A stretch of DNA of 64,000 nt, from positions 876 through 64,875 of IMG/VR virus record IMGVR_UViG_3300010370_000038, one strand, 5' to 3'. Under the pieces are notes generated by a model, which saw only the letters and a program-made list of their open reading frames with translations, did not search any database and was not told the origin of the DNA. Source of the DNA: a virus (taxonomy: Duplodnaviria; Caudoviricetes). Position numbers and translations under genes: made by a program. Numbering within the stretch: position 1 is the first letter of the stretch; every line of letters starts with the position of its first letter. Positions 24,030 to 56,526 of the stretch are shown here, piece after piece.

Positions 24030-24038
24030 GTATAACAA

Positions 24039-25781: not shown

Positions 25782-25848
25782 GTGGCACAGGGGTCCCCAC
25801 AGGGTCCCCTCCCACCCCTTATAATTCTTTCAGATCAAACGAAACGAC

Positions 25849-26118: not shown

Positions 26119-26193
26119 ACTGTCCACCTGACCCCCACAGGGTCCCCTCCCACCCCTTATAATTCTTTCAGTTCAAACAACCAAACCAAACAA

Positions 26194-26628
26194 ATGAGCA
26201 TCACTTTCACCGCTAACTACAACGAAACCCTCAGCACCGAAACTGTTGAGAAGATCGAAGAATTGCTGGAGGATAACTACGCTCTGGATGACATGCTGGA
26301 GTTCATTGATTCCTACAATGAAAACGATTTCGTTGCTTATTATGAGGAATATGTCCGCTGTGGTGAAGCGATCGGTTATGAGGCAGTTGATGCTTTGATC
26401 GCAGAAATGGGTTGCGTTTCTTATGTTGAAGACTGCGACGATCGCTACCGTGGTTGTTATGACAATGAGGCAGACTTTGCCGAGGATTTCTACTCTGAGT
26501 TGTATGATGTTCCCTCTGCTTTGGTGATTGATTGGGAGGCAACTTGGGAGCAGAATTTGCGTTATGACTTCACTGCATGTGACGATGGCACGTCTTATCG
26601 TTCCTGCCACATCTTCTCTGATCACTGA
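26194..26628 (+). CDS. ardA: ArdA-like antirestriction protein (DNA mimic)
   Basis: Very acidic; YRGCYDNEADFAEDF...VP...IDWEATW...LRYDF resembles the ArdA C-terminal domain. Confidence 0.7.
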   Translation: MSITFTANYNETLSTETVEKIEELLEDNYALDDMLEFIDSYNENDFVAYYEEYVRCGEAIGYEAVDALIAEMGCVSYVEDCDDRYRGCYDNEADFAEDFYSELYDVPSALVIDWEATWEQNLRYDFTACDDGTSYRSCHIFSDH

Positions 26629-26671
26629 TCCTTTCCCCTTTCACATTCGTTCCCTTTACTAACACAAACTC

Positions 26672-26812
26672 ATGACCACTTCCGTGATGATTTCCCTGCT
26701 CAATCGTGCCACCAATGGCAACGAACTGCTGCAGATTCTTGATACTCTGGGCGCTGAAGATTGTGCCGCTGAGAGTATCAACGAACCGACCCTCAATCCC
26801 ATTCAATTCTGA
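26672..26812 (+). CDS. Small hypothetical protein, 46 aa (not in ORF track)
   Basis: MTTSVMISLLNRATNGNELLQILDTL... Confidence 0.65.
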   Translation: MTTSVMISLLNRATNGNELLQILDTLGAEDCAAESINEPTLNPIQF

Positions 26813-26819
26813 TAGTCTC

Positions 26820-27017
26820 ATGATGAACTTTGCAATCGCTGATGATTTTGTTTCCGATCTTATGGATGACAATGTAATTAATGAATGCGGTGGATTTGTT
26901 ATCCTTGATGATGAAGGTGAGATTGTACAGGTATTCGATTCTTATGAAGATGCAGAGGATTGGATTGCTGAGGATGTGGAACTTTACCGCATTGTGAATA
27001 ACAATTATTCGTACTGA
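26820..27017 (+). CDS. Acidic hypothetical protein
   Basis: MMNFAIADDF...FDSYEDAEDWI. Confidence 0.65.
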   Translation: MMNFAIADDFVSDLMDDNVINECGGFVILDDEGEIVQVFDSYEDAEDWIAEDVELYRIVNNNYSY

Positions 27018-29555: not shown

Positions 29556-29963
29556 ATGCCTTTAGATAGCAGGATCGTATCAAAATCTTTTAAAGATATC
29601 AGCTTTTCGTTTGTACCTCATCCAGTTACAAACGATATGACTGTTTTAAGGAATGAAGACGCAATTAAAACAGCAATCAAAAATTGCGTCTTTACGATTC
29701 CTGGTGAAAAATATTTTAATGAAAATTTTGGATCTCCCATCAGAAATAGTTTATTTGATTTAATTGATGATGCAACTGCATCTATTGTTTCGGATAGAAT
29801 TATCGATACAATAGAAACTTATGAACCAAGAGTAACTAACGTTTCGGTAGAGGTTGAAGCATTGCCAGACGACAATGCCTTTAATGTTGTTATCTTCTAT
29901 GACATTATTGGCGAACAGTTCCCAAGACAAGACCTAGAGTTCATTTTAGAGGCTACCAGATAA
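29556..29963 (+). CDS. gp25: Baseplate wedge subunit gp25
   Basis: FKDISFSFVPHPVTND...AIK...T.PGEK.F...FGS...YEPRV. Confidence 0.93.
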   Translation: MPLDSRIVSKSFKDISFSFVPHPVTNDMTVLRNEDAIKTAIKNCVFTIPGEKYFNENFGSPIRNSLFDLIDDATASIVSDRIIDTIETYEPRVTNVSVEVEALPDDNAFNVVIFYDIIGEQFPRQDLEFILEATR

Positions 29964-46800: not shown

Positions 46801-47498
46801 CAAGCAACATTAGAGTTGGTTTTGGCACAACAGCATTGGCTACTGCAATTATTGGTGCTGGTGGATCAATTATTGGAGCAAATATATTAAATGCTGGAAG
46901 TGGTTATTCGACAACTAGAAATGCATATGCACTTGCACCATATCCTCAGATTAAAGTTTCTGAGGAAATACTTGCCGTAACCGTTACAAATGGTTACGAT
47001 GGGGCATTGATTGGTATTGATACTGGTGTTGGAATCGGAACAAATTTAGCACTCAAATTTACGTTAGATCTTCCAGATAGCCCAGAAAATACATTAAGAG
47101 ATGGGTTTAGAATCTGGATTAATGGAACAAACGTTGGTTCTGGTGTAACATCAATTGATAATGGACCAAATGAGATAATTGGAATTGGCACTAACAAACT
47201 AGATAATATCTACAAAGTTCACTTTGTACAATATGATGGTGGATCTGGAGTTGTAACCGTAACTTGCAACGTCAAAGATGATACGAATATCAGCGGTCTT
47301 GCTACAGTTGGAACAGCATTCACTTCTGTTGGAAGATATAGTTGGGGAATTTTGACTGGATTTACTAGATCTCAAGATCCTATTTCTATCTCCGCAGATG
47401 GATTTACTCCAACTTCTGGTCTCTCAACATATCCATTAGTACAGAGAAGAGGATATGGTCTGAGAAACACGGGTGCTATACGAAGAGAACCAATATGA
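31857..47498 (+). CDS. gp7: Baseplate wedge initiator gp7 (giant, 5213 aa, many inserted domains)
   Basis: Between gp6 and gp8; QLPRFV...FLRQYY, FYQTKGT.ESFRILF, DNNYYQNLSY...VHPTG; YHYH-like SPIIGWAYDGNPI. Confidence 0.9.
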   Translation: MAVKRVKIKDIVESQLPRFVLEDSPKVAEFLRQYYISQEFQGGSVDLAENLDQYIKLDHLVASVINPAITLEFPISASDDQILLSSVEGLPDSYGLVKIDDEIITYTGVDGNTLTGCVRGFSGIVKYRDENNPEELIFESTNAASHTSGLVTFDTTTYSPGDYYYQDATITTMYGIIRVRPSTGTVKTVRYKVKNIQSSFYQLSGPDIDDTQLNQTVVVNQGDIVQFEVEASGHPLYIQSTGDGYDTNAVLTVGVQNAGASVVTSVQNLSVEFLKEFFIKLKTLYAPGFEDRKLYEGVNIKNFLANVRSFYQTKGTRESFRILFSVLYGKSVQVVDLEDFVLKSSTSNYLRRATVVAQVISGDPLLLTGQTLYQDDDPTNPEVIAASGPISEVEIFSRQGEVFYKIPLFIGYNEQSLVTGRFYVPGYTKNTLEASANARVINVDSTVGFSKSGKLIIDGLNGTTIVTYTDKNLTQFLGCSGLTTNLPVGYALRSNVTAYGFEEGDSSRRVDLRITGVLGEFESIGDNYYLDVGNEIYIKSIGEDIGVPADPTQEPTYKQKIFNSWLYNVATRYQVKEVSGSTFTLFDNITKNYLKTGDQVHVLPRDSSTILTTAEVTVLNSNTIQLSNTTGVVANGKYDIRRIIERASSTNNLIEFGNETITSDIQNTYVTKDKTFESMYVACQGLPSFDINVDRVRVEFNGLDIASGAIQQLVSFVNNLPFVSGDEVIYEALNGAPSIGGLESGKRYFIWINPSANNQLKLTEARSFIDANKFITLTPAAGTHRLTLAAHYDKLIQPQKILRQFPLFPNVKSGLAQTTTYGATGMLINGVEIINYKSSDFIAYGPLESLSLISGGTDYDIINPPNVNISNTGAGGTEARVDPVITGSLKSIYLPNKDVYDIDQIFGLNIEGGNGQGASASVTLSKNFTTVEFNAKSIFSNGGVDVAANTITFTSSHNFSTGQKIVYNANGNNPLGIAKTLGSDDDYSYGDTLENGIIYFPRIVNTSTIQLHLTETDAVNGINTVGITTLNNLGIHKFRSFDFKNKIQTISVVTAGEGYTRRTYNIKSNIGINTSIDAFYVPNHGYKDDEVVVYQGTDPIRELTSNSQYRIIKLSADEFRLANSSIDVLRNRYINFSNTGSGIHTVKYPDITAKIVASVGGTTISIDTEPDFRGEIISTYLSETGSNYGSNVLNFEKSPTVTVISGRGAQFQPFVSNGVITGVQIIGAGEEYTSAPDLVVNGEGTGAQLKAKITNKKVTSVEVISGGLGYNPKTTTISVTSIGRGAIIEASIRKLTVNLRNKYSSDDFLNPNTNYPLQYGTLSYSQQFQDAFGDSLATRSPIIGWAYDGNPIFGPFGTRNPKENTGITTYIRSGYELRQNEVENRPSTSLFPAGFFVEDYKFVGNGDLDEYNGRFFISDDFPQGIYGYCATLEINPGTGLPRPAFPYYIGNSYISPKASQVISQDTDLNTLDLNRNTYPYKLKSPTASYDFIIESDELVGQEGVVDSIITSSVEKLNIIESGDLYKVNDKIVFDEEGTNGQGINAVVSFVKGKDVNSIQSTNVQFNDVTFIKTSDTQITGIIEPNHQFNNNEVIEIFDLNTDVKGLSGFHVVGVATERAIILDPMQGGGPVGLVTDVIVSRIPTNVSGGSSIRMSNGEVCKILNVIKRGNILRLERSGIATFQEADTITYLQDKFIIESDAPQFESEYFPKEYFNPKTAVGVGTTVGNYNSLEYYENRVQKTRVINHQEIFVDKHPFFDGQKALFVKPAGSLSVAIATAIGVGTTAILVNDSIPRSGTSQEVWIVNKSINSIGIKTERNGAPVFFTSNGSDFSDYYIQGIGTAVRGSVKQPTTTVTTSEAHGLQVGDKVSFNILANNTVGIGTSTTVRVELNSAGLLVVDSQGISSAGINTVTNRITVPGNNFRTGDRIFYEPRCPEVIGGLGTGRYFVYKDTPDEFRLCETYEDVFADVPVVVSLTSIGGTDHNFALINPKLEVASRSSLNFDLQSYSLNGYGFKIYYDRGYKSIFVGTGKSTTAEVGDPLDVEGRPSGIGATYTKVKVDNNTFCPPVLYYNLTKNGFPIDPDKDVKEFGTIKYVNSAYTGEFEITSIGSSLAGVGTTAFSFAIARTPEKVSYAATEARAFYSTASLGVEGPIDKVQLVSGGEFYSRLPRFVKVESERGNNATIKPESKKIGKINSISLINEGFNYSSDQSLRPIVDIPNVADITSFNTIDNIEITANGRNYISAPKLALVDRFSGIAVPNANIFAEISRDSGSVTKVGIDRPPTGLKNREYKVYPTNNTNGIVIVSTQSNPTRTGIVTFTIATPVLGFTAQPFKVGDMVWIEGFETDADADGYNSTDHKYNYFKIDNIVTQNPFVFEVDYSNYTLNVGLGVSDTGSFPRVIKKSDLADFNVTLKQSTFEKNEKLVVNSVLTDLQVISFDKVAGNIKYIGLYQLQVGDNIAGSKSGSRATVQDIISFSGVYSVKGESEKTLEGVGGSGKLNSSFQVLEDNNYYQNLSYTLKSEVAYDDCIDAVNNTVHPTGLKNFVDNQIVSSIPRVGIQTATTTSLTTVDLVENVRVDDVYNYDLARDLDVKIRNNQSISNKIELQNAKLSDYIESKTNRVLPVDDISSQFSNLSNPNTLDLFENIYRYPFNYTSNRFLVQITTEDYKKVQVSEITILQDGSNTYYTEPTFKKLHNTPQEIGTLEADLDEENSNVRVRFYPTDPYNTNYNIKIINNFYDTVPTITGIGTTQFGFAALMGADAQIGTMTSKSFVSVAATNYNYLHAYVEAETLSVGQKETLFAEVVAIHDTSDSYIGEYNIISSDGSYGGTNAGTFGTFGSTYDPINNKFSIDFYNNSTKDIVQLKSRIIGFGKTEGTTNRDYRFLASGMIPGNERSARYYTEYQTVGVGSTANFAGITSANQSVNQCTMIVGYGRTFSCYQYLFLNDYFSGSLYFSEYPVLSVGNTSGLGTVYADYDARGRGVLIFTPDPSITEKMYMRTFNEVMYLELEQNNVNPLQYGVAIEEVFNTKYTALNLRNIFEFPMDWNGYPIYTKTFNPAIPGQFNPATGVFNIKNHFFTTGQPLVYTPGGSFVGLATTAISMNSGSFMPGIVYAIKDNEDNFRVGLTTADALAGIGTTFADVGSGNVHKFDTRGKLERSLIAIDGIVQKPLTWAPITRTLEHNIVSAGGTLGLGKTDIYASISGISSIVLGDLFQIEDELVIVDSVGVGVSLFAIDPSGIGTYNLIKIQRGAVGTAASFHANGTLMQKYTGSYNIVDSKIFFTGAPNGGKSSDEAINTGIPEKGSSFSGRVFLRKDYSTNKIFDDISGQFTGIARTFTLKSEGQDITGIGSEGGFGIFFVNNMFQKPQTLNNVNANLFIRESGGQSNLTFTGTLNETGDVVTSFVDINQNGVPRGGIVVTLGSSEGQGFAELGNPSIGASVNHAGEIWKVLTSPTTQNMVEITDFIYDHTTGLSTVTTSTPHGFIDGTYIDMVGIGFTCNPTKSGITTGVFPYTRGQKKNIANIIYDNTTGMATVTTVEPFGILNVGEEVFFNGIGFTCIGQKYAQISQTAGLTTTIFPTRTGIAKTISDFKYHNSTGIGTITLSTPHRYQAGDRIYLEDLELSCGYGIGITDVLYNASTGLTTVTTASAHGFSKGDKVRLSGIAFTCPGYGTTIAISDFEYDNSTGISTITLSAEHGVKPGQQIKLVGLGFTCDSAYIGVTTTIFPDGTQGDVFPVIKVLSATKILTNVGVSTIVHHYDAGGHMQVGITSTIFPSGNNGFEFIITSVPTTKKFRVNVGTSTIPHTYVSGGTAILGLTTTTFPHPTGIAHSLSDFVYDNTTGIATITVARGGHTYSLGDRINFAGIGFTCDGGSGLTTSVFPSPLGRPYNITGFTYDNSTGLATVTTSVAHDFKVTDSLNFEGINFSCPGGSGITTTVFPDTVNFPTRSYRVLAIQDSTKIQVDVGVSTIIHTYVAGGTVSAIKKTGPYEVNRIIGISTFCCNVGISTYKHYYTPANGVGEVTKLNFGGVDDTYVVTGIVSAKSFTIDAGISTYTHTYAGGGISRKKLRTQSFIVDTVVNDRTFRTNVGPSTYRHVYDPQPIKVPGTILISNFQYNNQTGLATITAPFHGIRKGGELIRISGLALSCPGGSGITTTIFPSADGLSRNVTNAIYDNTVGILTVTTAVGHGITFVGQFVKLEDLGFDCAGGNTSVTGATYFSDLPITGFDYTETTGVATVTAVGHGLTTGENVRLSGIAFTCPGGSGITTTIFPDGTQGFFFGVNDVIDPDTFVTNVGISTIAHTYVSGGIVRTGVTTDKFPSPQGAFIKIFDFEYNNQTGLATVTTNGYHQFGSGQVIKFHDIHFTCPGGSGITTTVFPDNNQTTFVVKERINRHQFTVNVGISTIPHTYDKGGRVSPVRYTGPYEVISINSNTEYEVNVGRSAIAHTYTSGGTSKPQHYTGPYELLSVVDSNTLKVRIGISTYVHTYVSGGKVTRLRSGIVEKKLNPGPFTVDSVIDSTKFTVDVGICTFPHFYHSGGKVGELLSFFPGSGYYGNTVPVTLVSKNGIGSGAAINATVGYGGSLVFTLNNVGSGYTDSPIIRLPGPSYDDVPVKGLFRLGIGETTQTGFGLSVTLNVGGISTSGITSNLSGVKNFSITNPGYGFAVGDKLTTVGLVTAAQILSGKTVGYRTDTVPFELQVLETYSDTFYAWQFGQIDYIDDVTELQNGESKRFPLRQNGQLLSFEKADGSAISFPALLLIFVNGVLQLPNTNYIFEGGTSFEFTSAPQPDDQIAIYFYRGSNDDVINKEVFETIKVGDEVIILRKAFDPDTVDQDPRVVNTILASDTVATNLYTLQGINDTTYRPLVWRKQKNDRIVDGRVISKSRETLEPQIYPTARVIGSIGSTSTSIFVDSVGIFNWEELTPTTDFDIVLTQYNNPVVGVLSVGIATTGANAGSISTITVLEGGSGYSGIVTISISNPSNIRVGFGTTALATAIIGAGGSIIGANILNAGSGYSTTRNAYALAPYPQIKVSEEILAVTVTNGYDGALIGIDTGVGIGTNLALKFTLDLPDSPENTLRDGFRIWINGTNVGSGVTSIDNGPNEIIGIGTNKLDNIYKVHFVQYDGGSGVVTVTCNVKDDTNISGLATVGTAFTSVGRYSWGILTGFTRSQDPISISADGFTPTSGLSTYPLVQRRGYGLRNTGAIRREPI

Positions 47499-47537: not shown

Positions 47538-49094
47538 ATGCCAGCTATAGTATCAGATCAGTTTAGAATTCTGAACGCAAAAAACTTTGTCGATGATATT
47601 GAAGATTCCAACAACTCATATTATGTAATGTTGGGTCTGTCGAATCCTACTGCGGTTGGGTTCGGCAGAAGTGCCAATTGGGATGATTTGACCCCATATC
47701 CAATTGATGATTTGAATAATTTAAATCACGTCAAAGATACCTTTTTATTCGGTAAGAAGATTACTTCAGATAATGTTAGAAGATTGATTAGAAGAGTAGA
47801 TTGGACACAGGGGACAATCTATGAAATGTATAGACATGATTATAACATCATCAATCCATCTCCAGTTACGAACTCGACTAGGTTATATGATGCAAATTAT
47901 TATGTAATGAATTCAAATTATCAAGTCTATATTTGTCTACAAAATGGATCTTCAGGTATCAATACGAGTGGTAATCAATCATTAGATGAACCAACTTTTA
48001 CTGACCTAGAACCTTCTAGAGCAGGTAATAGCGGAGATGGTTATGTGTGGAAATACATGTATACAGTTTCTCCTGGAGATATTATCAAGTTTGATACCCT
48101 TGAGTATATACCAGTTCCAAATAATTGGGAAACGGTTAGTGGGCAAGTTGCAGCAGTTAGAGAAAACGGAAATTCGGAACTAAATTTGAATCAAATAAAA
48201 ACAATTTATATAGAAAATCAAGGTTCTGGTTATGGTATAGGTCAAAATCAAGCGGTAGATATTTTGGGAGATGGAACAGGAGCTAAAGCTGTTCTTAACG
48301 TTGATAGTTCAGGAAAAATAACAGGAGCAACAGTTTCCTCTGGTGGAAAAGGATATACATATGGAATGGTAGATCTTTCAACCATAAATACAGGATCTAT
48401 CACTGACAGGGCATTTCTAATTCCAATTATTCCGCCATCAAAGGGTCATGGATATGATGTTTACAAAGAATTGGGTGCAGATAAAGTATTGATCTATGCT
48501 CGTTTTGATGATATTGCTGATTTTCCAACTAACTCAAAATTCTCTCAAGTTGGAATTCTAAAAAACCCAGTTTCTACTGGATCAACTGCAGTAATTAGTT
48601 CCGACTCATTTACAGCATGTAATGCTTTGGTGCTAGATACAATTTCTGATATTACGCAGATTACGGTTGGAGCAAAACTTAGACAAACTATAGGTGCTGG
48701 TCAAACTGCATTTGGTTATGTGACATCTTTTGATAAGGACACAAAAGTAGTTAGATACTATCAAGATAGATCACTATACTTTAACCAAAGCACCGCAAAT
48801 CAAGAAGATGACCCATTTGCTGCACCAGAAAGTTTTATTAAGTATGACTTTACGGGTGCAGTAGCCAATGTAACTATTGGATCTGCAAGTTGCACAATCA
48901 ACACTGGATTTACTGGAATTACTACGACTACAACTTCTGGTGCTGTAGTTGACTTAGGCATTAACTTCACAGGAGGCGTAGCTGTTCCAGAAATAGATAA
49001 GATGAGTGGTGATCTCATATATATTGATAACAGGGCTACCGTCACCCGAAACTTGAGACAAAGAGAAGACGTAAAAATCGTACTAGAGTTTTAA
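47538..49094 (+). CDS. gp8: Baseplate wedge subunit gp8
   Basis: MPAIVSDQFRILNA, RRVDW..G..Y.MY, VYICL.N, DGYVWKYMY, C-terminal SGDLIYIDNR...EDVKIVLEF. Confidence 0.95.
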   Translation: MPAIVSDQFRILNAKNFVDDIEDSNNSYYVMLGLSNPTAVGFGRSANWDDLTPYPIDDLNNLNHVKDTFLFGKKITSDNVRRLIRRVDWTQGTIYEMYRHDYNIINPSPVTNSTRLYDANYYVMNSNYQVYICLQNGSSGINTSGNQSLDEPTFTDLEPSRAGNSGDGYVWKYMYTVSPGDIIKFDTLEYIPVPNNWETVSGQVAAVRENGNSELNLNQIKTIYIENQGSGYGIGQNQAVDILGDGTGAKAVLNVDSSGKITGATVSSGGKGYTYGMVDLSTINTGSITDRAFLIPIIPPSKGHGYDVYKELGADKVLIYARFDDIADFPTNSKFSQVGILKNPVSTGSTAVISSDSFTACNALVLDTISDITQITVGAKLRQTIGAGQTAFGYVTSFDKDTKVVRYYQDRSLYFNQSTANQEDDPFAAPESFIKYDFTGAVANVTIGSASCTINTGFTGITTTTTSGAVVDLGINFTGGVAVPEIDKMSGDLIYIDNRATVTRNLRQREDVKIVLEF

Positions 49095-49098: not shown

Positions 49099-52000
49099 AT
49101 GCCACAAAGAACTAACCTGAACATCAATCCATATTATGATGACTATGACCAAAATAGTAATTACTACAGAGTTCTATTTAAGCCTGGATTCCCAGTACAG
49201 GCGAGAGAATTAACTACTTCTCAATCGATTCTGCAGAATCAAGTTGAAAAATTTGCACGTCACTTCTTTAAAGATGGGTCGGTAGTTATTCCTGGTGGAG
49301 TAAGTTACGACTTAGATTATCCTGCGGTACAGATCGAATCAACTTTTCTGGGATTAGATGTTTCTGCGTATATTAAAAACTTTATTGGCAAAGAAATTAG
49401 AGGTCAAAGTTCTGGAGTAGAAGGACGAGTAGTAAATGTTCTTTCTGAGTCGGAATCGGATAGTGGAAATATCGTTCTCTATGTAAAATATACAACTGGT
49501 GCAAATGATAACTCAGTTGCTGTATTTTCTGATGGAGAGACTTTAATTGCTCTAGATACAATAACATATGGCAATACTACTATTGCCAGTGGCAATACAT
49601 TTGCGAATGTTATTCCCGATAATGCTACTGCTATTGGATCTGCAGCACACGTTGATAGAGGTACTTTCTTCTTCAGAGGGTTCTTTGTTGATGTAGAAAA
49701 GCAAAGTATCGTTCTTGATCAATTTGGAGATAAACCATCATATAGAGTTGGTTTACAAATTAGTGAAGAGATTATCAATGCTAAGCAAGATAATACTTTA
49801 TATGATAATGCAAAGGGATTTACGAATTATGCAGCTCCTGGAGCAGATAGATTTAAGATTGCAACAAAGTTAGTCAAAAAACCACTAACTGATTTAAATG
49901 ACGCAAACTTTGTAGAGTTGCTGAGACTCAATCTAGGTGTTCTTCAGATTGTACCAAATAAACCAGATTATGCTGTAGTTAAGGACTATATTGCACAAAG
50001 AGACTTTGAAAAAACAGGAAACTTCTTTGTAGAACCATTTAGTATCACTTTCCACGAAAGTTTAAACAATAGAAGAGGAAATGGTGGTCTATTCTATGAA
50101 AATCAAGTAACAGATCAAGGAAATGTCCCATCTGATGATTTACTTGCAATTTCTGTTGGTTCTGGAAAAGCATATGTAAAAGGATACGATATTGATAGAC
50201 CAATTGCTAGTATTCTTGATGTAGAAAAACCCAGAACTACAAGAAGAGTAGAGAATGTAAATGTCTCATTTACTATTGGAAATAGTGTTCGTTTAACGAA
50301 CGTAACTGGACATCCAGCAATTAAGCATGAGTTGGAATTATACAAGCAGAGATTGGGTGCTAATGGAACTACATTAGTAGGTCCAAAAATTGGAGATGCC
50401 AGGGTATATTCATTCCAACTAACATCAGGGGAGTATAAAGATGATACTACCCAATTTACAATGTATGTTTATGACTTGAATTTATATTCGTTCTTACATT
50501 TAGCAAACCCACTGAGCGCAACAGAACTTCCAGCAGGTTCTTATATTAAAGGTCAATCAAGTGGAGCAACTGGATATGTAACTGCTGCAGGTAGTGGATC
50601 TGCAAAAATTTATGTTAGAGATGTACTTGGAACGTTTATTCAAGGTGAAGATATTTGGATTAATGATAATGTAGAAAATAAAAGAAGAATTCTAGATACT
50701 AGAACTTTCAGTTCTAAAGATGTAAAATCCGTATATCAACAAGCATCTGCAAAAGGTCTTGCAGCTGATTTCTATGCTGATCTGGCATTAGATACTGTCC
50801 CAATTCCAGGATATAAAGATTCTGATGTATTTACATTAACAAACGCTGGACAGCTTACCATTGGCGATAAAGCAATTACTGGTATTACTACAGATACTCT
50901 GTATAGTATTAAGCAGGTTGGATTCCAAACCAGCACAATCTTTAGAGTAAAAGATATAGCAAAAACTGGGAAGGCAGTTACACTTGAAGCAGTAACCCCA
51001 GTTAATGGAATTAGTGGTGGAGGTCTTCCAGCAGCAACACTCAATACCACAATTGTAGCATTATCTCCTAGTTTGGCAAATACTTCCGATGATGGATTAT
51101 TTGCTGTACTACCTACAAATAATATTGCTTCGGTAACACTAGAAGAGTCTACTTTAGAATTTGTTGATCAAATTACAGCATTGACAACAAACGGAAGTGG
51201 TGAAATGACTATAACAAACACTACTGGTATTCAAGGTGCGTTGTTTGAAGATTTTGATGAAGATAGGTATTCTGTTGTCTATGACGATGGTTCTATCGCA
51301 ACGTTAACAGCAGAAAAATTTGAATTAAATAGCGGAACAAATACAGTTTTAATCAAAGGTCTAAAGGCAAACGAAACAAATGTAGTGGCAAATGTCACTA
51401 TGAAGAAGCCTAAGATGAAGGCTAAGCAAAAAGTTCTTAATAGATCTAAGGTTGTAAACATTGTAAAATCCAGTAAGAAAAATTCTGGTATTACTACAGG
51501 AACTAGTTTACTTGATGGATTACAATATAGTTCTTTCTATGCAACAAGGGTACAAGATAGTGAGATATGCATAAATTATCCAGATGTAGTTGAGGTTCTT
51601 GCAGTACATGAATCTTGGGATATCAATGCCCCAACTTTTGATAAGATTAACTTTAACTCGATTGAGAACATCCAACAAAGTGCAATCATTGGAGAAAATG
51701 TTGTTGGAGATGACAGCAAAGCAATTGCTAGAGTTGTTGGAAAGCCAGCTGCTGCTCAAATTGAGTTTATTTATTTAACTGATGCAAGATTTGCATTGGG
51801 TGAGAATGTACAGTTCCAAGAAAGTAAAATAATCGCAACGATTGATAGCATTGTAAATGGAAACTATAAAGATGTAACACATAGGTATTCATTAAATCAA
51901 CATCAAGAAAAGTCGTTCTACAACTATTCATCCATTCAGAGAACAGCAGTTAGTGGAAATCCGCCAACAAGACAATTAAAAGTTGTTTTTGACTATTATA

Positions 52001-55000
52001 CAATTCCAGCTGGAGATGATGGTGATATCATTACAGTAAACAGTTATCCACCAGAATCATACAGAAACAAGATTCCACATATTACGTCAAGGGTAAGTGA
52101 TAGAGATACAAACTGGGCAACTGATGTTCTTGACTTCAGACCATATGTAGATGTTTATAATCCAGATACAGCTTCGTATCCACCATATGATTTTGATAGT
52201 AGAAACTTTGACGCATCAGATAAACCAAAGATTCTGATGGCTCCTGGAGAAAGTCAAATTGTATCATTTGAATATTATTTGGCAAGAAAAGATAAACTTT
52301 TCTTAAATAAAAATGGAGAACTATTTGTTGTAAAGGGTCAACCTGGGGTTGGAAGTCCAGATGACTTGAACGAAGATAATATGCTCCTTGGTACTATTTC
52401 GTACCCAGCTTTCTGCGATAATGCAAATATGGTCACTATTGACTTGGAAAATCCAAGAAGATATACCTTTGCTGATCTCGTAAAAATGGAGCAGAGGATT
52501 GAGAGAATTGAAAAAGCAGTTTCCCTTTCCATGCTTGAAGAACAAACCAAGAACGTCGATGTTAGAGACGCCAATGGAAAATCAAGATTTAAGAATGGAT
52601 TTTTTGCTGACAATTTCCAAAGTAATGATCAAATTGATACAAACCATCCAGATAATAAGTGCGAACAGTCAACAGAAGACGAAGGTGTTGTAACTCCAGT
52701 TCCTTCCAATGGAAGTTTGAAGTCTTTGATTGTTACAGAAGCTACAACAAATGCCCAAACATTTGATAGTACAGTTAATTATACTCTATTAGATAACAAT
52801 ATTCAAAAATCTGGAGATCTTCTAACATTAAAGTATGTTGAAGAAGAATGGGTAAAACAGTTAGCTGCCACTGGAGTAAGCAATATTAACCCATTTAACG
52901 TTATTACATGGGCTGTTGCAATCACACTAACTCCAGATATTGATAGTTGGACTAGAAAAATTTATACTGAAAGAACTATCGAAATTAAAGGTCTCCAAAA
53001 ACAAGTTGCTGTTGTTACTTGGAGATGGAGATGGCACCGTAGAGGATACTGGTGGGGTTGGTGGGGTCATTATTGGCACTACTGGGCATACTGGGGTGGC
53101 TGGGCATGGGGTCACTGGGGAGGACACTGGTACGGTCACTGGGGCTGGGGCTGGTGGGGCTGGTGGGGCTACCGCTGGGGCTGGCACTATTATGGATGGT
53201 GGGGCTGGGGCTGGTGGCTCGCTCGTGGTTGGTGGTGGTGGGCACCATCTGTTTACTACGTTACTGTCGATCTTCCAACACCAGTACCTGCTGATACCAT
53301 CGAAATGACATCGAGGGTTGATGAGGATTACATGAGGTCGAGAAACGTATTGATGACAGCGGTAAGCTGTAAACCTAATACTAGATACTATCATTTCTTC
53401 GACGGAACTAATAACCTGGATATCATACCAAAACTTCTTGAAATCAAGGATGTTACTGGAGCATTCCAAGTTGGAGAAACTGTCAAGGGTACTAGTGGCA
53501 GCGCATCAATCACGTTTAGAGTCTGCACACCAAATCATAAGCAAGGACCATTTAATAACCCAGATAGAGCTTTCCAAACTAATCCATATAATAGTGGTTC
53601 TACAATTCCTTCAACATATTCAACTTCATCAACAATCTTGAATGTTGACGTTGCTGCTATGTCGGAAGAAGCGCAAGGTGCTTATTCTGGATATGTAGTT
53701 AATGATATGCTATTAGTTGGTCAAACTTCTGGTGCTACTGCAAAAGTTGCTAACATTCGTTTCATTTCTGATAACTTTGGTGATATATACGGATGCTTCT
53801 TCATCAGAGATCCTTTGGCAGATCCAGCACCACCAAATAGATTTAAGACTGGAACAAAACAATTTGTCTTGAATACTGATATCAATGACACAAAACCAAT
53901 TCCAGGAACAACTAAGATTTCTAGAGGCGCAGCTGATTACAAATCAACTGGTGTCGTTGAAACATGGAGAACGACTAAGTATAAGGTCTACTATCACAGA
54001 GACCCTCTTGCACAATCGTTTACTACTGATGCTAGTGGTGTTTATATCACAAGTATTGATGTTTGGTTCTACCAAAAGGACAATAAGTTGCCAGTCTTCT
54101 GCGAAATTAGACAGATGCAACTTGGAACTCCTACCAGAAATGTTCTTGAATATAGTGAGGTTAAGTTAGATCCAGACCAAGTTAAATTGGTTCCTGATGA
54201 TGGGGCTTCGGCAGGAGATGATACATACAAGACTACATTTACATTTAAATCTCCTGTATTCTGTTCTCCAAACGAAGAATTCTGTTTCGTTCTTCTATCT
54301 GAATCCGACCAATATGAAGTATTCCTCGCTAGAATGGGAGATAAGACACTTAATTACCAAGCATTTGGTTTAGGTGCCAACTCTCAACATAGTAAACAGT
54401 GGGGTGCTGGTTCTCTATTCAAGTCGCAGAACGGTTCTATCTGGACTGCAACTCAGGAAGAAGACTTAACATTCAGAATCAAGAGAGCTAAGTTTACTTC
54501 TAAGTCTGGTACTGTTTATCTACAGAATCCTGATCTTGATGTAAGTAACAACTATACCAGAAAACTTCGTGCTGATGCTTTCCAAGTCATTTCTAGATCG
54601 GTAACTATTGGTATCACAACAGTAAATCTTGGAACTCCACTAGCAGGTATCCTGACAACAGGCAGAAAGATTGGAGAAACAACAGCTGCAGAAAATCCAT
54701 CATCTACAGGAAAATCTTATATCTATGGCAATATCGAAAATGTTGGTGGTCCAATCGACATAACTTACGGATCTCTAGCTGGAGTTTCTACAGTTGCTAT
54801 TGGAGGAACTGGTTATATTGATGGACAATACACCAATGTAGAATTGTATGGCGTAAGTAGTAACGGAGATGGTGCTAGAGCAAACATTTTTGTTAAGGGT
54901 GGAAGTGTAACTGGTACTGGTGTAACTATAATTACAGCAGGACATGGTTATAAAGTTGGAGATATTTTGGGCATCACAACTTCCGATATTGGAGGTGCTG

Positions 55001-56526
55001 GAGCACAAGCTCAAATTGCTGTTGAAAAAATTAAAGGAATTGATAGACTTTTCTTACAAAATGTCAAGGCAAAAGAGTTTAAAGTTGGAGAAAGACTAGT
55101 TTACTTTAAGGATGATGATACCAGAGTATCTCTTGCCAATACAACTATTACTTTGTCAGCAAGAACTGGTCCTTCCGCTAATGAAGGGGACCTAATGCTC
55201 GTATATCTACCAAACCATGGTATGTACAGCGGTTCCAATAAAGTTGTTATTTCTGGCGTTGCTGACCTAGAGGATGCTACGCAATTAACAGCAAATGTAA
55301 CATCATCCAGTACAGTAGTTTCCATAGCATCTACAGTAAACTATGAGACATTTGAAGGTATGCCAGTTAGTGCAACAAATCCAGGATATGTCAAGATCGA
55401 TGAGGAAATTATTGCCTACACATCTGTTGGTTCTGGCAATTTGGTAATTTCTTCAAGAGGAGTAGATGGAACCATCCCAACTCCACATGATACTGGCGAA
55501 ACTGTAATGAAGTATGAAACTGCTGGCGTTTCGTTGAGAAGAATTAATAAGACTCATGACATAGACCCATATGAGTTTGATATTGATAATTACTATCTAA
55601 GAATAGATAGAACTGAAAGTGGAACTGATCGTTCTTCCGATGGAAGTTTGACCAATGCTCCAATGCTAAGTTTCAATAAACTTGGCGCTGTTGGTGGAAA
55701 CAATATCTATTCAACTTCAAACCTACTGTTCTGTGCTATCAATCCACAATATAGAATTATTCAACCAACTGGCGCAACTTCTGTATCTGCTCAAGTCAGA
55801 ACAATTACGGGAACAAGCCCAAGTGGAAGTGAAATATCATACATTGATCGTGGATACCAGGATATTCAATTGAATGAAGTAAATGAATTCCCAGATGTTA
55901 GAATGATTGCATCTAAAGTAAATGAAGATGCGTATAATACTGAACTATTCAGGAATAAGTCATTTACGACTGCAATTACTCTTGGAACCACAGATGAATA
56001 TGTATCACCTGCTCTAGATTCCACAATTGGTTCTACTGACTTTGAATTCTATAGATTAAACAAACCAGTATCTGATTATGCACTAGATGGTAGAATTAAT
56101 ATCTCTGGAGAAGATCCACATGCCAGCATATATGTAAGTAAACTGATCAACCTAGAAACTCCATCCGTTTCCCTCAAGTGTATCATTGAAGCTTATAGAC
56201 CAGAAAGTGCCGATTTCCGTGTAGCATATGCTATCAATACGGAGGGTCAGCAGGGAGAAGCACCATGGCGTCTCTTCCCAGGTTATGATAACTTAGTTGA
56301 TACTGATGGGGATGGTATTGGCGATAGCGTACTAAACCAGATTAATAATAATGGAAGAGCTGATCAAAAAATTAGAGCTTCTGCTAGTGGAGAATATATC
56401 CAATATGAATTTAATGCAGAAAATCTACAAAAGTTCAGCGCATTTAGAATTAAGATTATGATGTCTGGAACAAATGCGGCTCAACCGCCTAAATTTAGAT
56501 CGATACGAGTTATCGCCCTAACATAA
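49099..56526 (+). CDS. vrlC: VrlC-like (DUF4815) baseplate/virion structural protein, 2475 aa
   Basis: NLNINPYYDDY...VLFKPGFPVQARELT, APGADRFKI, RFKNGFFADNF, DPLAQSF, GSLFKSQNGSIW; follows gp8. Confidence 0.85.
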   Translation: MPQRTNLNINPYYDDYDQNSNYYRVLFKPGFPVQARELTTSQSILQNQVEKFARHFFKDGSVVIPGGVSYDLDYPAVQIESTFLGLDVSAYIKNFIGKEIRGQSSGVEGRVVNVLSESESDSGNIVLYVKYTTGANDNSVAVFSDGETLIALDTITYGNTTIASGNTFANVIPDNATAIGSAAHVDRGTFFFRGFFVDVEKQSIVLDQFGDKPSYRVGLQISEEIINAKQDNTLYDNAKGFTNYAAPGADRFKIATKLVKKPLTDLNDANFVELLRLNLGVLQIVPNKPDYAVVKDYIAQRDFEKTGNFFVEPFSITFHESLNNRRGNGGLFYENQVTDQGNVPSDDLLAISVGSGKAYVKGYDIDRPIASILDVEKPRTTRRVENVNVSFTIGNSVRLTNVTGHPAIKHELELYKQRLGANGTTLVGPKIGDARVYSFQLTSGEYKDDTTQFTMYVYDLNLYSFLHLANPLSATELPAGSYIKGQSSGATGYVTAAGSGSAKIYVRDVLGTFIQGEDIWINDNVENKRRILDTRTFSSKDVKSVYQQASAKGLAADFYADLALDTVPIPGYKDSDVFTLTNAGQLTIGDKAITGITTDTLYSIKQVGFQTSTIFRVKDIAKTGKAVTLEAVTPVNGISGGGLPAATLNTTIVALSPSLANTSDDGLFAVLPTNNIASVTLEESTLEFVDQITALTTNGSGEMTITNTTGIQGALFEDFDEDRYSVVYDDGSIATLTAEKFELNSGTNTVLIKGLKANETNVVANVTMKKPKMKAKQKVLNRSKVVNIVKSSKKNSGITTGTSLLDGLQYSSFYATRVQDSEICINYPDVVEVLAVHESWDINAPTFDKINFNSIENIQQSAIIGENVVGDDSKAIARVVGKPAAAQIEFIYLTDARFALGENVQFQESKIIATIDSIVNGNYKDVTHRYSLNQHQEKSFYNYSSIQRTAVSGNPPTRQLKVVFDYYTIPAGDDGDIITVNSYPPESYRNKIPHITSRVSDRDTNWATDVLDFRPYVDVYNPDTASYPPYDFDSRNFDASDKPKILMAPGESQIVSFEYYLARKDKLFLNKNGELFVVKGQPGVGSPDDLNEDNMLLGTISYPAFCDNANMVTIDLENPRRYTFADLVKMEQRIERIEKAVSLSMLEEQTKNVDVRDANGKSRFKNGFFADNFQSNDQIDTNHPDNKCEQSTEDEGVVTPVPSNGSLKSLIVTEATTNAQTFDSTVNYTLLDNNIQKSGDLLTLKYVEEEWVKQLAATGVSNINPFNVITWAVAITLTPDIDSWTRKIYTERTIEIKGLQKQVAVVTWRWRWHRRGYWWGWWGHYWHYWAYWGGWAWGHWGGHWYGHWGWGWWGWWGYRWGWHYYGWWGWGWWLARGWWWWAPSVYYVTVDLPTPVPADTIEMTSRVDEDYMRSRNVLMTAVSCKPNTRYYHFFDGTNNLDIIPKLLEIKDVTGAFQVGETVKGTSGSASITFRVCTPNHKQGPFNNPDRAFQTNPYNSGSTIPSTYSTSSTILNVDVAAMSEEAQGAYSGYVVNDMLLVGQTSGATAKVANIRFISDNFGDIYGCFFIRDPLADPAPPNRFKTGTKQFVLNTDINDTKPIPGTTKISRGAADYKSTGVVETWRTTKYKVYYHRDPLAQSFTTDASGVYITSIDVWFYQKDNKLPVFCEIRQMQLGTPTRNVLEYSEVKLDPDQVKLVPDDGASAGDDTYKTTFTFKSPVFCSPNEEFCFVLLSESDQYEVFLARMGDKTLNYQAFGLGANSQHSKQWGAGSLFKSQNGSIWTATQEEDLTFRIKRAKFTSKSGTVYLQNPDLDVSNNYTRKLRADAFQVISRSVTIGITTVNLGTPLAGILTTGRKIGETTAAENPSSTGKSYIYGNIENVGGPIDITYGSLAGVSTVAIGGTGYIDGQYTNVELYGVSSNGDGARANIFVKGGSVTGTGVTIITAGHGYKVGDILGITTSDIGGAGAQAQIAVEKIKGIDRLFLQNVKAKEFKVGERLVYFKDDDTRVSLANTTITLSARTGPSANEGDLMLVYLPNHGMYSGSNKVVISGVADLEDATQLTANVTSSSTVVSIASTVNYETFEGMPVSATNPGYVKIDEEIIAYTSVGSGNLVISSRGVDGTIPTPHDTGETVMKYETAGVSLRRINKTHDIDPYEFDIDNYYLRIDRTESGTDRSSDGSLTNAPMLSFNKLGAVGGNNIYSTSNLLFCAINPQYRIIQPTGATSVSAQVRTITGTSPSGSEISYIDRGYQDIQLNEVNEFPDVRMIASKVNEDAYNTELFRNKSFTTAITLGTTDEYVSPALDSTIGSTDFEFYRLNKPVSDYALDGRINISGEDPHASIYVSKLINLETPSVSLKCIIEAYRPESADFRVAYAINTEGQQGEAPWRLFPGYDNLVDTDGDGIGDSVLNQINNNGRADQKIRASASGEYIQYEFNAENLQKFSAFRIKIMMSGTNAAQPPKFRSIRVIALT

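What the first reader, a model, noticed from the sequence alone, without database searches (positions are those of the whole stretch)
53020..53241. 74-residue tract with 31 Trp inside the VrlC-like virion protein
Seen: WRWRWHRRGYWWGWWGHYWHYWAYWGGWAWGHWGGHWYGHWGWGWWGWWGYRWGWHYYGWWGWGWWLARGWWWW, 42% Trp and almost only W/G/H/Y/R, in frame between ordinary beta-rich segments. Gly (GGT/GGC/GGA), His, Tyr and Arg codons vary synonymously in this frame, which points to selection on the Trp reading rather than a simple DNA repeat or a double frameshift. Trp is the rarest and costliest residue. Inference: the tract could be an interfacial membrane-disrupting or carbohydrate-stacking element at the baseplate, an aromatic UV-absorbing or metal-binding (His) assembly, or a substrate for post-translational modification.
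Basis: partly seen in the sequence, partly recalled or inferred. Interest (0 to 1): 0.82.

Follow-up and report, generated by a model that had tools for sequence, protein, structure and literature searches.

The report
Tryptophan-rich sticky loop in phage baseplate protein
A water-dwelling T4-like phage carries a real 74-residue stretch that is 42% tryptophan, inserted in a variable surface loop of a large baseplate protein; similar stretches occur at the same spot in several unrelated phages, so it probably works as a sticky contact element during attachment to the host cell.

Summary
The rest of the 2475-aa ORF has 11 Trp in 2402 residues.

**It is real and translated**
- Contigs from four metagenome studies carry the tract with no indel.
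- The nearest relative keeps a W/R/Y/G tract in the same frame, and its differences pile up at third codon positions.

**Where it sits**
- The host protein is a DUF4815/VrlC baseplate protein, homologous to the solved tripod protein gp119 of Staphylococcus phage 812.
- Its gene follows gp6-like, giant and gp8-like baseplate genes.
- The tract lies in a hypervariable loop just after the DUF4815 core, predicted to be the tip of a beta-hairpin.

**It recurs**
- Cationic, acid-free Trp-rich tracts occur at this site in several lineages; a single origin for all of them is rejected.
- One case is a 1067-aa DUF4815 protein in a 63% GC phage.
- A few relatives instead carry a hydrophobic Gly/Phe core flanked by Arg runs.

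**Interpretation**
- Best reading (inferred, about 0.4): an exposed aromatic-cationic loop that binds the host outer-membrane/LPS interface.
- Rivals: tripod-to-tripod contacts, glycan stacking, or a tolerated low-complexity expansion.
- The halogenase-substrate idea has no co-occurrence support.

The parts
49099..56526 (+). 2475-aa DUF4815/VrlC-type baseplate (tripod-like) protein gene that holds the tract
   Evidence: ORF. Pfam DUF4815 E 1.1e-62 and phrog_358 over the full length. Only PDB sequence hit is the 1152-aa DUF4815 chain of phage 812 baseplate entries, E 6e-35.
52258..52956 (+). Best Pfam DUF4815 stretch (aa 1054-1286, profile positions 371-565 of 570); the tract starts 22 residues after it
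52882..52896 (+). Conserved N-I-N-P-F anchor (aa 1262-1266) upstream of the variable loop
   Evidence: N1262, N1264, P1265 and F1266 are invariant in the 20-sequence alignment A1. Used as the left anchor.
52939..53025 (+). Predicted beta-strands leading into the tract (aa 1281-1297 and 1300-1309)
   Evidence: AlphaFold2 model of aa 1040-1640: strands E242-258 and E261-270
53020..53241 (+). The Trp-rich tract: 74 aa, W31 G18 Y8 H7 R6 A3 L1, no acidic residue; built partly of in-frame micro-repeats
   Evidence: TRF periods 6, 9 and 12 with 2-3.2 copies each. pLDDT 33-44 and coil in the model.
53242..53244 (+). Codon 1382 directly after WWWW: GCA (Ala) here, TAT (Tyr) in contigs of two other studies
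   Evidence: X3 and X4 read T, A, T at 53242-53244
53242..53271 (+). Predicted returning beta-strand (aa 1382-1391)
   Evidence: strand E343-352 in the model
53332..53346 (+). Conserved M-R-S-R-N anchor (aa 1412-1416) that closes the variable loop
   Evidence: R1413, S1414, R1415 and N1416 invariant in A1
53296..54009 (+). Confidently predicted beta-sandwich region after the loop (aa about 1400-1637)
   Evidence: Ten-residue pLDDT block means for model residues 361-590 are mostly above 90 (two blocks at 83 and 87); the block for 591-600 falls to 55. Foldseek: phage 812 baseplate chains first (E about 1e-5), then MSCRAMM adhesins such as SdrG (E 2.8e-4).
47538..49094 (+). Context: gp8-like baseplate wedge gene immediately upstream
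   Evidence: Pfam Phage-Gp8 E 3.1e-15
29963..31855 (+). Context: gp6-like baseplate wedge gene, followed by a 5213-aa ORF (31857..47498)
   Evidence: Pfam Gp6-like_1st E 7.5e-15; ORF list
13534..15645 (+). Context for the novel reading only: 703-aa flavin-dependent (Trp) halogenase-family gene, 35 kb upstream
   Evidence: Pfam Trp_halogenase E 4.2e-74; search of the own record E 1.8e-76

Best explanation
The tract is a genuine, translated low-complexity insertion of Trp, Gly, Tyr, His and Arg. It sits in the hypervariable loop that follows the DUF4815 core of the phage's tripod-type baseplate protein (the VrlC / A511 Gp106 / phage 812 gp119 family). It lies at the tip of a predicted beta-hairpin and grew at least partly by in-frame duplication of Trp-Gly codon units. 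Selection acts on its composition (aromatic plus basic, never acidic), not on its exact sequence. Most likely it is an exposed, sticky aromatic-cationic element. By homology the protein forms trimers that sit many to a baseplate and turn towards the cell on adsorption. When they do, the Trp/Arg loops would partition into the interfacial zone of the host outer membrane or bind LPS phosphates, and so anchor the baseplate. Shown: the tract is real, in frame and compositionally conserved; it recurs at one site; and it lies in a baseplate protein. Inferred: surface exposure, trimer context, membrane/LPS binding.
For: (1) Real and in frame: four studies' contigs show no indel. Conserved flanks on both sides are in the same frame.
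(2) Frame-specific constraint against the nearest relative (L124, same contig as L038; about 69% identity overall). In 71 aligned tract codons the differences by codon position are 19/21/37, like the flanks at 19/15/31, with 13 synonymous-only codons. Of the 31 Trp, 21 align to Trp and 5 to Tyr.
(3) A population variant changes the whole codon after WWWW from Ala to Tyr.
(4) Recurrence. Among 221 long-family loops, 14 have at least 5 Trp; 6 of them have 13-31 Trp (P0001, P0002, P0008, P0271, P0272, P0273). The flank tree needs at least 4 changes. One clade for the 8 W-rich rows in the 46-row subset tree is rejected, delta lnL 447, p-AU 5e-6.
(5) A 1067-aa DUF4815 protein in a 63% GC contig (L077; Pfam E 2e-175) has 10 W and 12 Y in 35 residues at the homologous site. 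There the tract is less GC-rich than its gene. So the trait is at the amino-acid level and does not follow base composition.
(6) Charge: the dense Trp segments hold 2-15 Arg/Lys and no Asp/Glu in 13 of 14 cases.
(7) Two relatives carry, at the same site, a 30-residue Gly/Ala/Phe/Leu hydrophobic core flanked by RRRR runs (P0048, P0102).
(8) Baseplate context: gp6-like, giant and gp8-like genes upstream, neck and gp15-like genes downstream. The protein is homologous to phage 812 gp119, annotated 'tripod protein', 1152 aa. That protein is a putative receptor-binding trimer that reorients towards the cell (PMC13433997, passages).
(9) The summed Wimley-White interfacial free energy of the tract is -58.7 kcal/mol, and the best 19-residue window scores -18.4 against -4.5 anywhere else in the protein. 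The scale values are recalled from memory.
Against: No experiment or structure shows exposure or membrane binding. AlphaFold2 gives the tract pLDDT 33-44 and no structure. Most homologues have polar Thr/Ser/Asn/Arg-rich or short loops: 205 of 221, and 53 of 54 IMG/VR loops have at most 7 Trp. A membrane-active loop is therefore not a general requirement of the family. In phage 812 the 'fiber domains' of tripods make protein-protein contacts after contraction. The tract may lie in the equivalent domain, but I could not map it because the domain boundaries are only in figures. The host is unknown. For the three heaviest tracts in the first search (P0001, P0002, P0008) a single origin is not rejected (p-AU 0.20).
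Confidence: 0.4

Rival explanations
1. Inter-tripod or baseplate 'velcro': the aromatic loop is a protein-protein contact that locks neighbouring tripod trimers or other baseplate parts together, before or after contraction, through pi-pi and cation-pi contacts.
For: In phage 812 each tripod's fiber domains bind the base domain of neighbouring tripods (1900 A2 interface) and RBP2 after contraction (PMC13433997, passages). The tract follows the spine-helix-like helix (model H85-112), where the paper's domain order (spine, flap, fiber, base...) would put the fiber domain; this mapping is my inference. The homologous gp119 segment is itself aromatic-rich. W/Y/R/G is a classic sticker-spacer composition (general knowledge).
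Against: Structural interfaces are usually conserved, but this loop ranges from 15 to 140 residues with wholly different compositions among relatives that share conserved flanks. Arg-flanked hydrophobic cores fit a membrane better than a soluble interface.
Confidence: 0.2
2. Glycan-stacking element: the Trp, Tyr and His side chains bind host surface polysaccharide (O-antigen, capsule, sheath) by CH-pi stacking, as an accessory receptor-binding site.
For: Tripod/Gp106-type proteins carry carbohydrate-binding modules and are thought to bind cell-wall glycans (PMC13433997 and PMC11406892, passages). Aromatic residues line sugar-binding sites (general knowledge). The domain after the loop resembles adhesin Ig-like folds weakly.
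Against: Sugar-binding sites are ordered clefts with a few aromatics, not 74-residue tracts with no predicted structure. The consistent presence of Arg/Lys, the absence of acids, and the hydrophobic-core variants point more to lipid or phosphate contact.
Confidence: 0.12
3. Tolerated low-complexity expansion: replication slippage of Trp-Gly codon units inflated a permissive loop, and the tract has no function of its own.
For: TRF finds in-frame micro-repeats (TGGAGA, TGGTGGGGT, CTGGGG, TGGGGCTGG, TGGGGC; 2-3.2 copies). C-ending codons are over-represented in the tract (21 of 43 non-Trp codons against 13% in the rest of the gene, P 1.6e-8; GGC 8/18 vs 17/182), as expected if units were copied recently. 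The loop tolerates almost any length and composition.
Against: Third-position-biased divergence and W-to-W or W-to-Y conservation against a 69%-identical relative. Recurrence in several lineages and in a high-GC phage with different codons. Exclusion of acidic residues. An identical tract in four studies. Trp is costly and rare, so drift to 42% is unlikely (general knowledge).
Confidence: 0.13
4. Substrate for post-translational modification: the co-encoded flavin-dependent halogenase halogenates Trp (or Tyr/His) residues of the tract.
For: A 703-aa Trp_halogenase-family gene lies on the same record. The characterised cyanophage halogenase VirX1 (Syn10) has a large accessible active site, and no natural product is listed for it (PMC8407142, passages). 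Syn10 is among the tblastn hits of the window's halogenase (29% identity).
Against: Halogenase genes occur in 64 isolate phage records. S-SRM01 is one of them, and its loop has one Trp. Only 1 of 16 related IMG/VR records has one, and its loop has 1 Trp. The 36.8-kb fragment of a second W-tract lineage (L270) has none, though all of these are fragments. The gene lies 35 kb away, outside the structural module.
Confidence: 0.04
5. Artefact or DNA-level feature: the true reading is the Gly/Thr/Ala frame with two compensating shifts, or the G-rich DNA itself (12 GGGG runs, three GCTGGTGG words) is what is selected.
For: The +1 frame is open and Gly/Thr-rich, like some homologues' loops. There are 12 G4+ runs in 222 nt. 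GCTGGTGG occurs 7 times in the window, all on the + strand, against 0.91 expected, and 3 of them lie in the tract.
Against: No indels in four studies. The relative's differences peak at third positions of the Trp frame. The nearest relative has fewer GGGG runs (8) yet keeps 24 Trp, and the high-GC homologue has 3. GGGG and GCTGGTGG follow automatically from Trp-Gly and Gly-Trp-Trp codons.
Confidence: 0.02

Closest known systems
Tripod protein gp119 of Staphylococcus phage 812 (PDB 9EUF, 9EUI, 9EUJ and others) and its A511 Gp106-type homologues
   Same: DUF4815 family. It is the only PDB sequence hit (E 6e-35, four aligned stretches across the protein), and phage 812 baseplate chains are the top Foldseek hits. 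GenBank KJ206563.2 annotates the 1152-aa gp119 as 'tripod protein', the same length as the PDB chain. The short homologue L077 aligns end to end with gp119 (27% identity, E 5e-85). The segment of gp119 homologous to the tract (about residues 615-660) is itself rich in F, W, Y and H. Both genes lie in the baseplate module.
   Different: The window's protein is more than twice as long (2475 aa), comes from a T4-like phage of aquatic habitats, and no LysM or CBM family was detected by Pfam. Where gp119 has a mixed segment, the loop here is expanded to 74 residues with 31 Trp. Trimer and pyramid formation are not shown here.
VrlC, a core structural protein of cyanomyophages and pelagimyophages
   Same: 41-43% identity to the 'VriC/VrlC' or 'virion structural protein' genes of S-SKS1, S-SRM01, ACG-2014f and S-T4. 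The gene neighbourhood matches. VrlC is described as common to the 31 pelagimyophage and 4 cyanomyophage genomes of one study's tree and as an integral part of two-layered baseplates (PMC7029224, passages).
   Different: All four isolate genes inspected have Thr/Ser/Asn/Arg/Val-rich loops with 1-3 Trp between the NPF and RSRN anchors. None has a Trp tract.
Trp/Arg-rich cationic antimicrobial peptides (indolicidin, tritrpticin, the puroindoline Trp-rich domain); names and properties recalled, not from a call
   Same: Composition: dense Trp with Arg or other basic residues and no acidic residues. Sub-motifs such as WRWRW here and RWRWGWWGWPWFRR in P0050-type relatives look like these peptides, which act at the membrane interface.
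   Different: Those are free peptides of about 13 residues (or a small protein loop). This is a 74-residue insert in a 2475-aa virion protein. No membrane activity was tested, and there is no homology.
Membrane-inserting loops of phage tail proteins (for example the phi29 tail-knob gp9 loops) and viral fusion peptides or Trp-rich membrane-proximal regions; recalled, not from a call
   Same: The concept is shared: long flexible loops in a tail-tip or entry protein that engage the host membrane. The Gly/Phe-rich, Arg-flanked variants at this site (P0048, P0102) resemble fusion-peptide composition.
   Different: No homology. This is a peripheral baseplate protein, not the tail tip. Function is unproven.

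Membership tests
Pfam DUF4815 (PF16075) | Profile match above the curated cut-off (30 bits) | tested here: met
   212.6 bits, E 1.1e-62, three stretches. All listed homologues carry PF16075.
Tripod / Gp106-type baseplate protein (phage 812 gp119) | Sequence and fold homology to the solved tripod protein | tested here: met
   phmmer E 6e-35 to the 1152-aa chain. BLASTP E 1e-20 of aa 1040-1640 against gp119 translated from KJ206563.2. Foldseek top hits 9euj_G and 9eui_Q, E about 1e-5, but TM only 0.14.
Tripod / Gp106-type baseplate protein (phage 812 gp119) | Gene sits in the baseplate module | tested here: met
   gp6-like, 5213-aa ORF and gp8-like upstream; neck-protein and gp15-like genes downstream.
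Tripod / Gp106-type baseplate protein (phage 812 gp119) | Homotrimer forming pyramids on baseplate arms; present in the virion | not testable with these tools
   No virion data. No complex prediction was run.
Tripod / Gp106-type baseplate protein (phage 812 gp119) | C-terminal carbohydrate-binding modules and a LysM-like hook | tested here: inconclusive
   Pfam finds no CBM or LysM family in P0001. Only aa 1040-1640 was folded.
Trp/Arg-rich cationic membrane-active peptides | High Trp, net positive charge, no acidic residues | tested here: met
   W31, R6, H7, D+E 0 in 74 residues. The same holds in 13 of 14 W-rich relatives.
Trp/Arg-rich cationic membrane-active peptides | Short free peptide that binds or perturbs membranes | not testable with these tools
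   The tract is embedded in a 2475-aa protein. This is a functional analogy, not membership.
Diversity-generating retroelement target (variable region) | A template-repeat copy nearby and adenine-specific variability between copies or strains | tested here: not met
   The 501-base stretch around the tract matches only itself in the 64,875-base record. Four studies carry the identical tract.
Simple tandem DNA repeat (microsatellite-type) | One unit repeated many times with high identity | tested here: not met
   Only seven short arrays of 2-3.2 copies, with periods of 6, 9 and 12. Synonymous codons are mixed.

The most novel reading that the evidence does not exclude
The Trp tract is the natural peptidyl substrate of the phage's own flavin-dependent halogenase, so that the virion carries a halogenated (possibly iodinated or brominated) poly-tryptophan loop at its baseplate. 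That would give viral VirX1-type halogenases, whose natural substrate is not known, a first physiological role. My evidence does not exclude this. Both genes lie on one 64-kb fragment, and VirX1 has an unusually open active site (PMC8407142, passages). But co-occurrence is not specific.
Probability: 0.04. Interest if true: 0.9.

Novelty: new variant of a known kind. Interest (0 to 1): 0.6.

Why it matters
A segment that is 42% tryptophan, and selected as such, is an extreme of natural protein composition. Finding it, and independent look-alikes, at one defined loop of a conserved baseplate protein gives a concrete and testable hypothesis. The hypothesis is that some aquatic myophages use antimicrobial-peptide-like Trp/Arg loops, or fusion-peptide-like hydrophobic loops, to grip the host envelope.

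It also marks this loop of VrlC, a core gene widely used as a marker of cyano- and pelagimyophages, as a likely host-interaction hotspot.

It supplies natural Trp-rich sequences for membrane-peptide work, and it offers a candidate substrate to test for viral halogenases.

There is a practical point too. Short-read assemblies break inside these tracts, so such genes are under-counted in metagenomic catalogues.

Tried and rejected
- **Close relatives in IMG/VR, single-protein query:** 14 pattern matches, none confirmed. Replaced by an alignment query.
- **Word-based protein search with the tract alone, aa 1296-1392:** only P0001 and P0002 (E 0.16), so the tract cannot be used as a homology probe.
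- **IMG/VR scan for TGGGGNTGGTGGGGNTGG:** My six-frame check found the Trp frame inside an identified DUF4815 gene only in L038 (2416-aa ORF) and L077 (1092-aa ORF). L089 also reads it within a 773-aa open frame of no assigned family, where the Trp-rich part lies upstream of a plausible start; I did not follow it. Several other loci have open Trp frames of about 100-320 aa, mostly in high-GC contigs, and the rest are short.
- **My first anchor patterns failed twice:** they matched the N-terminus (23 rows) and did not fit the short family (10 of 150). Both were redone.
- **Literature:** 'DUF4815' gave 3 papers, none on this. 'tryptophan-rich' with 'cyanophage' gave 2 irrelevant papers. 'tryptophan-rich' with 'baseplate' gave 2 HIV papers. 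'VrlC' with 'phage' gave 19 papers, of which I read passages of two. I found no description of Trp tracts in this family in the held library. Supplements are closed and could hold domain boundaries of gp119.
- **Earlier findings of this scan:** none for my words.
- **Halogenase co-occurrence:** no support, but nearly all W-tract records are fragments.
- **Phage tRNA-Trp:** none in the window.
- **X4 contigs** leave 53126-53172 uncovered. This is an assembly break at repeats, not evidence of absence.
- **AU test for P0001, P0002 and P0008 as one clade:** not rejected (p 0.20), so I do not claim independent origin for these three.
- **Not done:** I ran no complex prediction, and I could not map the tract onto named domains of gp119 because the text gives no residue numbers.
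Full report
**1.

Window 53020-53241 on the + strand lies in the frame of a 2475-codon ORF (49099..56526). The other 2402 residues contain 11 Trp, so this density has a binomial probability of 1.7e-52 at the protein's own rate. No other in-frame stretch of the window comes close; the next Trp-dense six-frame windows are out-of-frame noise with 6-8 Trp in 30 residues. The tract has GC 0.64 in a window of GC 0.376.

**2. It is not an artefact and not a shifted frame**

Contigs of four public runs from four studies were laid on 52700-53600.
- X1, possibly the source sample, spans 52700-53308 in one contig with no difference.
- X2 and X3 cover the tract with two contigs each and no difference inside it.
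- X4 lacks only 53126-53172.
- No insertion or deletion was listed in any run.
- Contigs break inside the tract in X2-X4.

X3 and X4 carry one notable variant. The codon right after WWWW (53242-53244) reads TAT (Tyr) instead of GCA (Ala): three adjacent base changes confined to one codon of the Trp frame.

The nearest relative is IMG/VR locus L124, on the same contig as L038; its product resembles P0002, about 69% identical overall. It has a 75-residue W24/R16/Y13/G13 tract at the same place and in the same frame. In a protein-guided codon alignment of the tract:
- 42 of 71 aligned codons keep the residue, and 13 differ only synonymously.
- Differences by codon position are 19/21/37, against 19/15/31 in the neighbouring non-tract part of the loop.
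- 21 of the window's 31 Trp align with Trp and 5 with Tyr, which needs two base changes.

This is the signature of purifying selection on the Trp reading. The open Gly/Thr/Ala frame (52940..53308) and the Pro-rich minus-strand frames follow mechanically from TGG/GGN codons.

**3. What protein this is**

- Pfam gives DUF4815 (E 1.1e-62), and PHROGs gives phrog_358 over the full length.
- Upstream lie a gp6-like wedge gene, a 5213-aa ORF and a gp8-like wedge gene. Downstream lie neck-protein and gp15-like genes.
- A Kyanoviridae Gp96 family gene is also present.
- The closest isolate genes, at 41-43% identity, are the 'VrlC/VriC' or 'virion structural protein' genes of Synechococcus myophages S-SKS1, S-SRM01, ACG-2014f and S-T4.
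- VrlC is reported as common to the 31 pelagimyophage and 4 cyanomyophage genomes compared in one study, and as an integral part of two-layered baseplates (PMC7029224, passages). It is treated as the homologue of Listeria phage A511 Gp106, which forms pyramids that flip towards the cell wall (PMC11406892, passages).
- The only solved relative by sequence is a 1152-aa 'DUF4815 domain-containing protein' in the Staphylococcus phage 812 baseplate entries (E 6e-35).
- GenBank KJ206563.2 annotates the 1152-aa gp119 as 'tripod protein'. Its translation aligns with the window's aa 1040-1640 (E 1e-20).
- In phage 812, twelve tripod trimers sit on the baseplate arms. They carry putative receptor-binding domains and reorient on attachment (PMC13433997, abstract and passages).

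**4. Where the tract sits**

It lies between two conserved anchors: N-I-N-P-F (aa 1262-1266) with L-x-P-x-x-D-x-W just after it, and M-R-S-R-N (aa 1412-1416). The residues N1262, N1264, P1265, F1266, R1413, S1414, R1415 and N1416 are invariant in the 20-sequence alignment. It starts 22 residues after the end of the Pfam DUF4815 match.

An AlphaFold2 model of aa 1040-1640 (60-sequence alignment, mean pLDDT 74) shows the following:
- A long helix (aa 1124-1151).
- Strands at aa 1281-1297 and 1300-1309.
- The tract, as coil with pLDDT 33-44.
- A returning strand at aa 1382-1391.
- A beta-sandwich region whose ten-residue pLDDT block means are mostly above 90 up to about aa 1629.

The tract is therefore best described as an insertion at the tip of a beta-hairpin. 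Foldseek ranks phage 812 baseplate chains first (E about 1e-5, low TM). Bacterial MSCRAMM adhesins follow for the sandwich region.

In gp119 the homologous segment (about residues 615-660) is itself rich in F, W, Y and H. I could not assign it to one of the named tripod domains, because the papers give boundaries only in figures. From the domain order I infer it is the 'fiber' domain.

**5. The loop is hypervariable and Trp tracts recur in it**

I extracted loops from 221 of the 227 long-family proteins returned by two searches. These are the nearest relatives of two W-rich queries, so this is not a random sample. By loop core:

| Loop type | Count of 221 |
|---|---|
| Polar low-complexity (Thr/Ser/Asn/Arg/Val-rich, up to 140 residues) | 163 |
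| Short (36 residues or fewer) | 42 |
| At least 5 Trp | 14 |
| Hydrophobic Gly/Ala/Phe/Leu core of about 30 residues flanked by Arg runs (P0048, P0102) | 2 |

Trp counts in the W-rich cases:
- The window's clade: P0001 with 31 and P0002 with 22.
- A second clade: P0008 with 24, P0272 with 21, P0271 with 20 and P0273 with 13. Their flanks are 63-68% identical to P0008, while their tracts barely align.
- Five P0050-type proteins with 8-9 Trp, carrying a RWRWGWWGWPW-like motif.
- P0074 and P0077 with 5, and P0091 with 6.

In 13 of these 14 the Trp-dense segment contains 2-15 Arg/Lys and no Asp/Glu.

Phylogeny, with the loop excluded:
- On a tree of the conserved flanks (115 rows), the W-rich state needs at least 4 changes, even counting only well-supported branches.
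- In an IQ-TREE subset of 46 rows, holding all 8 W-rich rows together costs 447 log-likelihood units (p-AU 5e-6). The group was named after I had seen the first tree.
- For P0001, P0002 and P0008 alone, one clade is not rejected (p-AU 0.20). I therefore do not claim that the two clades with the largest tracts arose separately.

An unbiased-by-tract IMG/VR sample gave loops for 54 of the 80 best loci out of 589 relatives. Only L124 had a heavy tract (26 Trp); the rest had 1-7. A second sample of 75 loci had at most 3 Trp in the loop core. Both IMG/VR contigs of the P0008 clade (L163, L270) end right at the start of the tract, so short-read assemblies under-represent these genes.

**6. A distant, independent case**

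The IMG/VR pattern scan picked up L077. It is a 1067-aa protein in a 63% GC contig that is DUF4815 over its whole N-terminal half (E 2e-175). It aligns end to end with phage 812 gp119 (27% identity, E 5e-85). At the homologous site it has 35 residues with 10 Trp, 12 Tyr and 6 Gly. Its 85%-identical relative P0121 keeps 11 Trp with Tyr/Gly/Arg exchanges. Here the tract is less GC-rich (0.51) than its gene. The trait is therefore selected at the amino-acid level in both low- and high-GC genomes.

Among 150 rows of this short subfamily (the query plus 149 representatives, out of 3855 hits at E up to 0.001), 7 have at least 5 Trp in the loop. Many others carry small WGW, WW or RWW motifs.

**7. 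How the tract arose**

Tandem Repeats Finder reports seven small arrays inside the tract, with periods of 6, 9 and 12 and 2-3.2 copies each. All periods are multiples of three. C-ending codons are strongly enriched:
- 21 of 43 non-Trp codons end in C, against 13% in the rest of the gene (P 1.6e-8).
- GGC is used in 8 of 18 Gly codons against 17 of 182 elsewhere (P 4e-4).
- CAC is used in 6 of 7 His codons against 4 of 20 elsewhere (P 0.004).

This fits growth by in-frame duplication of units such as TGG-GGC. The tract is stable rather than hypermutating: it is identical in four studies, and the 64,875-base record holds no second copy that could serve as a template repeat.

**8. Mechanism**

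What is shown: this is a real, in-frame, compositionally constrained aromatic-cationic loop. It recurs at one site of a baseplate protein whose solved homologue is a putative receptor-binding trimer that turns towards the cell.

What I infer: the loop is exposed and acts as a sticky contact. I favour contact with the outer-membrane interface or LPS (about 0.4), for four reasons.
- Trp plus Arg without acids is the composition of interfacially active peptides (recalled knowledge).
- The summed interfacial free energy is extreme: -58.7 kcal/mol on the Wimley-White scale, with values recalled from memory.
- Sister proteins place Arg-flanked hydrophobic cores at the same site.
- Such extreme variability among close relatives is typical of host-contact surfaces.

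Rivals:
- Tripod-to-tripod or tripod-to-RBP contacts, as made by the 'fiber domains' of phage 812 (0.2).
- Glycan stacking (0.12).
- A tolerated slippage expansion (0.13).
- A halogenase substrate (0.04).
- Artefact or DNA-level function (0.02).

His-based metal binding is unlikely, because 6 of the 7 His are replaced in the nearest relative.

**9. The halogenase idea**

The record does encode a 703-aa Trp_halogenase-family protein, 35 kb upstream. Homologues occur in 64 isolate phage records, including Syn10, the source of VirX1 (PMC8407142, passages). They also include S-SRM01, whose VrlC loop has one Trp. Of 16 related IMG/VR records, only one has a halogenase, and its loop has 1 Trp. The fragment from the second W-tract clade has none. 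All of these are fragments, so co-occurrence is unsupported rather than disproved.

**10. Novelty**

The family and its baseplate role are known. A selected, recurrent poly-Trp/cationic insertion in it was not found in the literature I could search. I class it as a new variant of a known kind, with interest 0.6. It is striking, clearly real and experimentally tractable, but its function is inferred.

Noticed in passing
window 13534-15645 (+): 703-aa flavin-dependent halogenase-family protein (Pfam Trp_halogenase E 4.2e-74 over residues 2-431). It has a roughly 270-residue C-terminal extension with a weak DUF6445 match, and is only 26-31% identical to the halogenases of isolate cyanophages.
   Followed up: partly
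window 24000-27000: A GC-rich island (up to 0.567 per kb against 0.376 for the window), dense in G and C runs. It holds small ORFs including a Kyanoviridae Gp96-family protein (24529-24894) and a DUF7249 protein (25849-26118). Three further ORFs have no Pfam family.
   Followed up: partly
window 7538, 34476, 43788, 46857, 53150, 53159, 53210 (+): The octamer GCTGGTGG (the E. coli Chi word, recalled) occurs 7 times, all on the + strand, against 0.91 expected from shuffles. Three copies lie in the Trp tract, where they follow from Gly-Trp-Trp codons. The meaning of the other four was not examined.
   Followed up: no
window 21699-22724 (-): A 341-aa ORF with a GIY-YIG nuclease domain (E 8e-11) on the strand opposite to its neighbours, possibly a homing endonuclease.
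   Followed up: no
window 31857-47498 (+): A 5213-aa ORF between the gp6-like and gp8-like genes, presumably a giant baseplate or fibre protein. Not analysed.
   Followed up: no
window 53860-53925 (aa about 1610-1633 of the same protein) and the homologous stretch in L001-L004: A second variable low-complexity segment just before the conserved DPLAQSF motif. It is short here (about 24 residues, including TWRTTKYKVYYHR), but long and Thr/Val/Ile/Arg- or Pro-rich in the four isolate phages.
   Followed up: no
L163 and L270 (IMG/VR contigs), and runs X2-X4 on window 53120-53190: Short-read contigs end or break at the start of, or inside, Trp tracts, so genes with such tracts are likely under-represented as complete genes in metagenomic catalogues.
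   Followed up: partly
window 27-187 (+): Two adjacent tRNA genes (Met-CAT and Leu-TAA) at the start of the window; there is no tRNA-Trp.
   Followed up: yes
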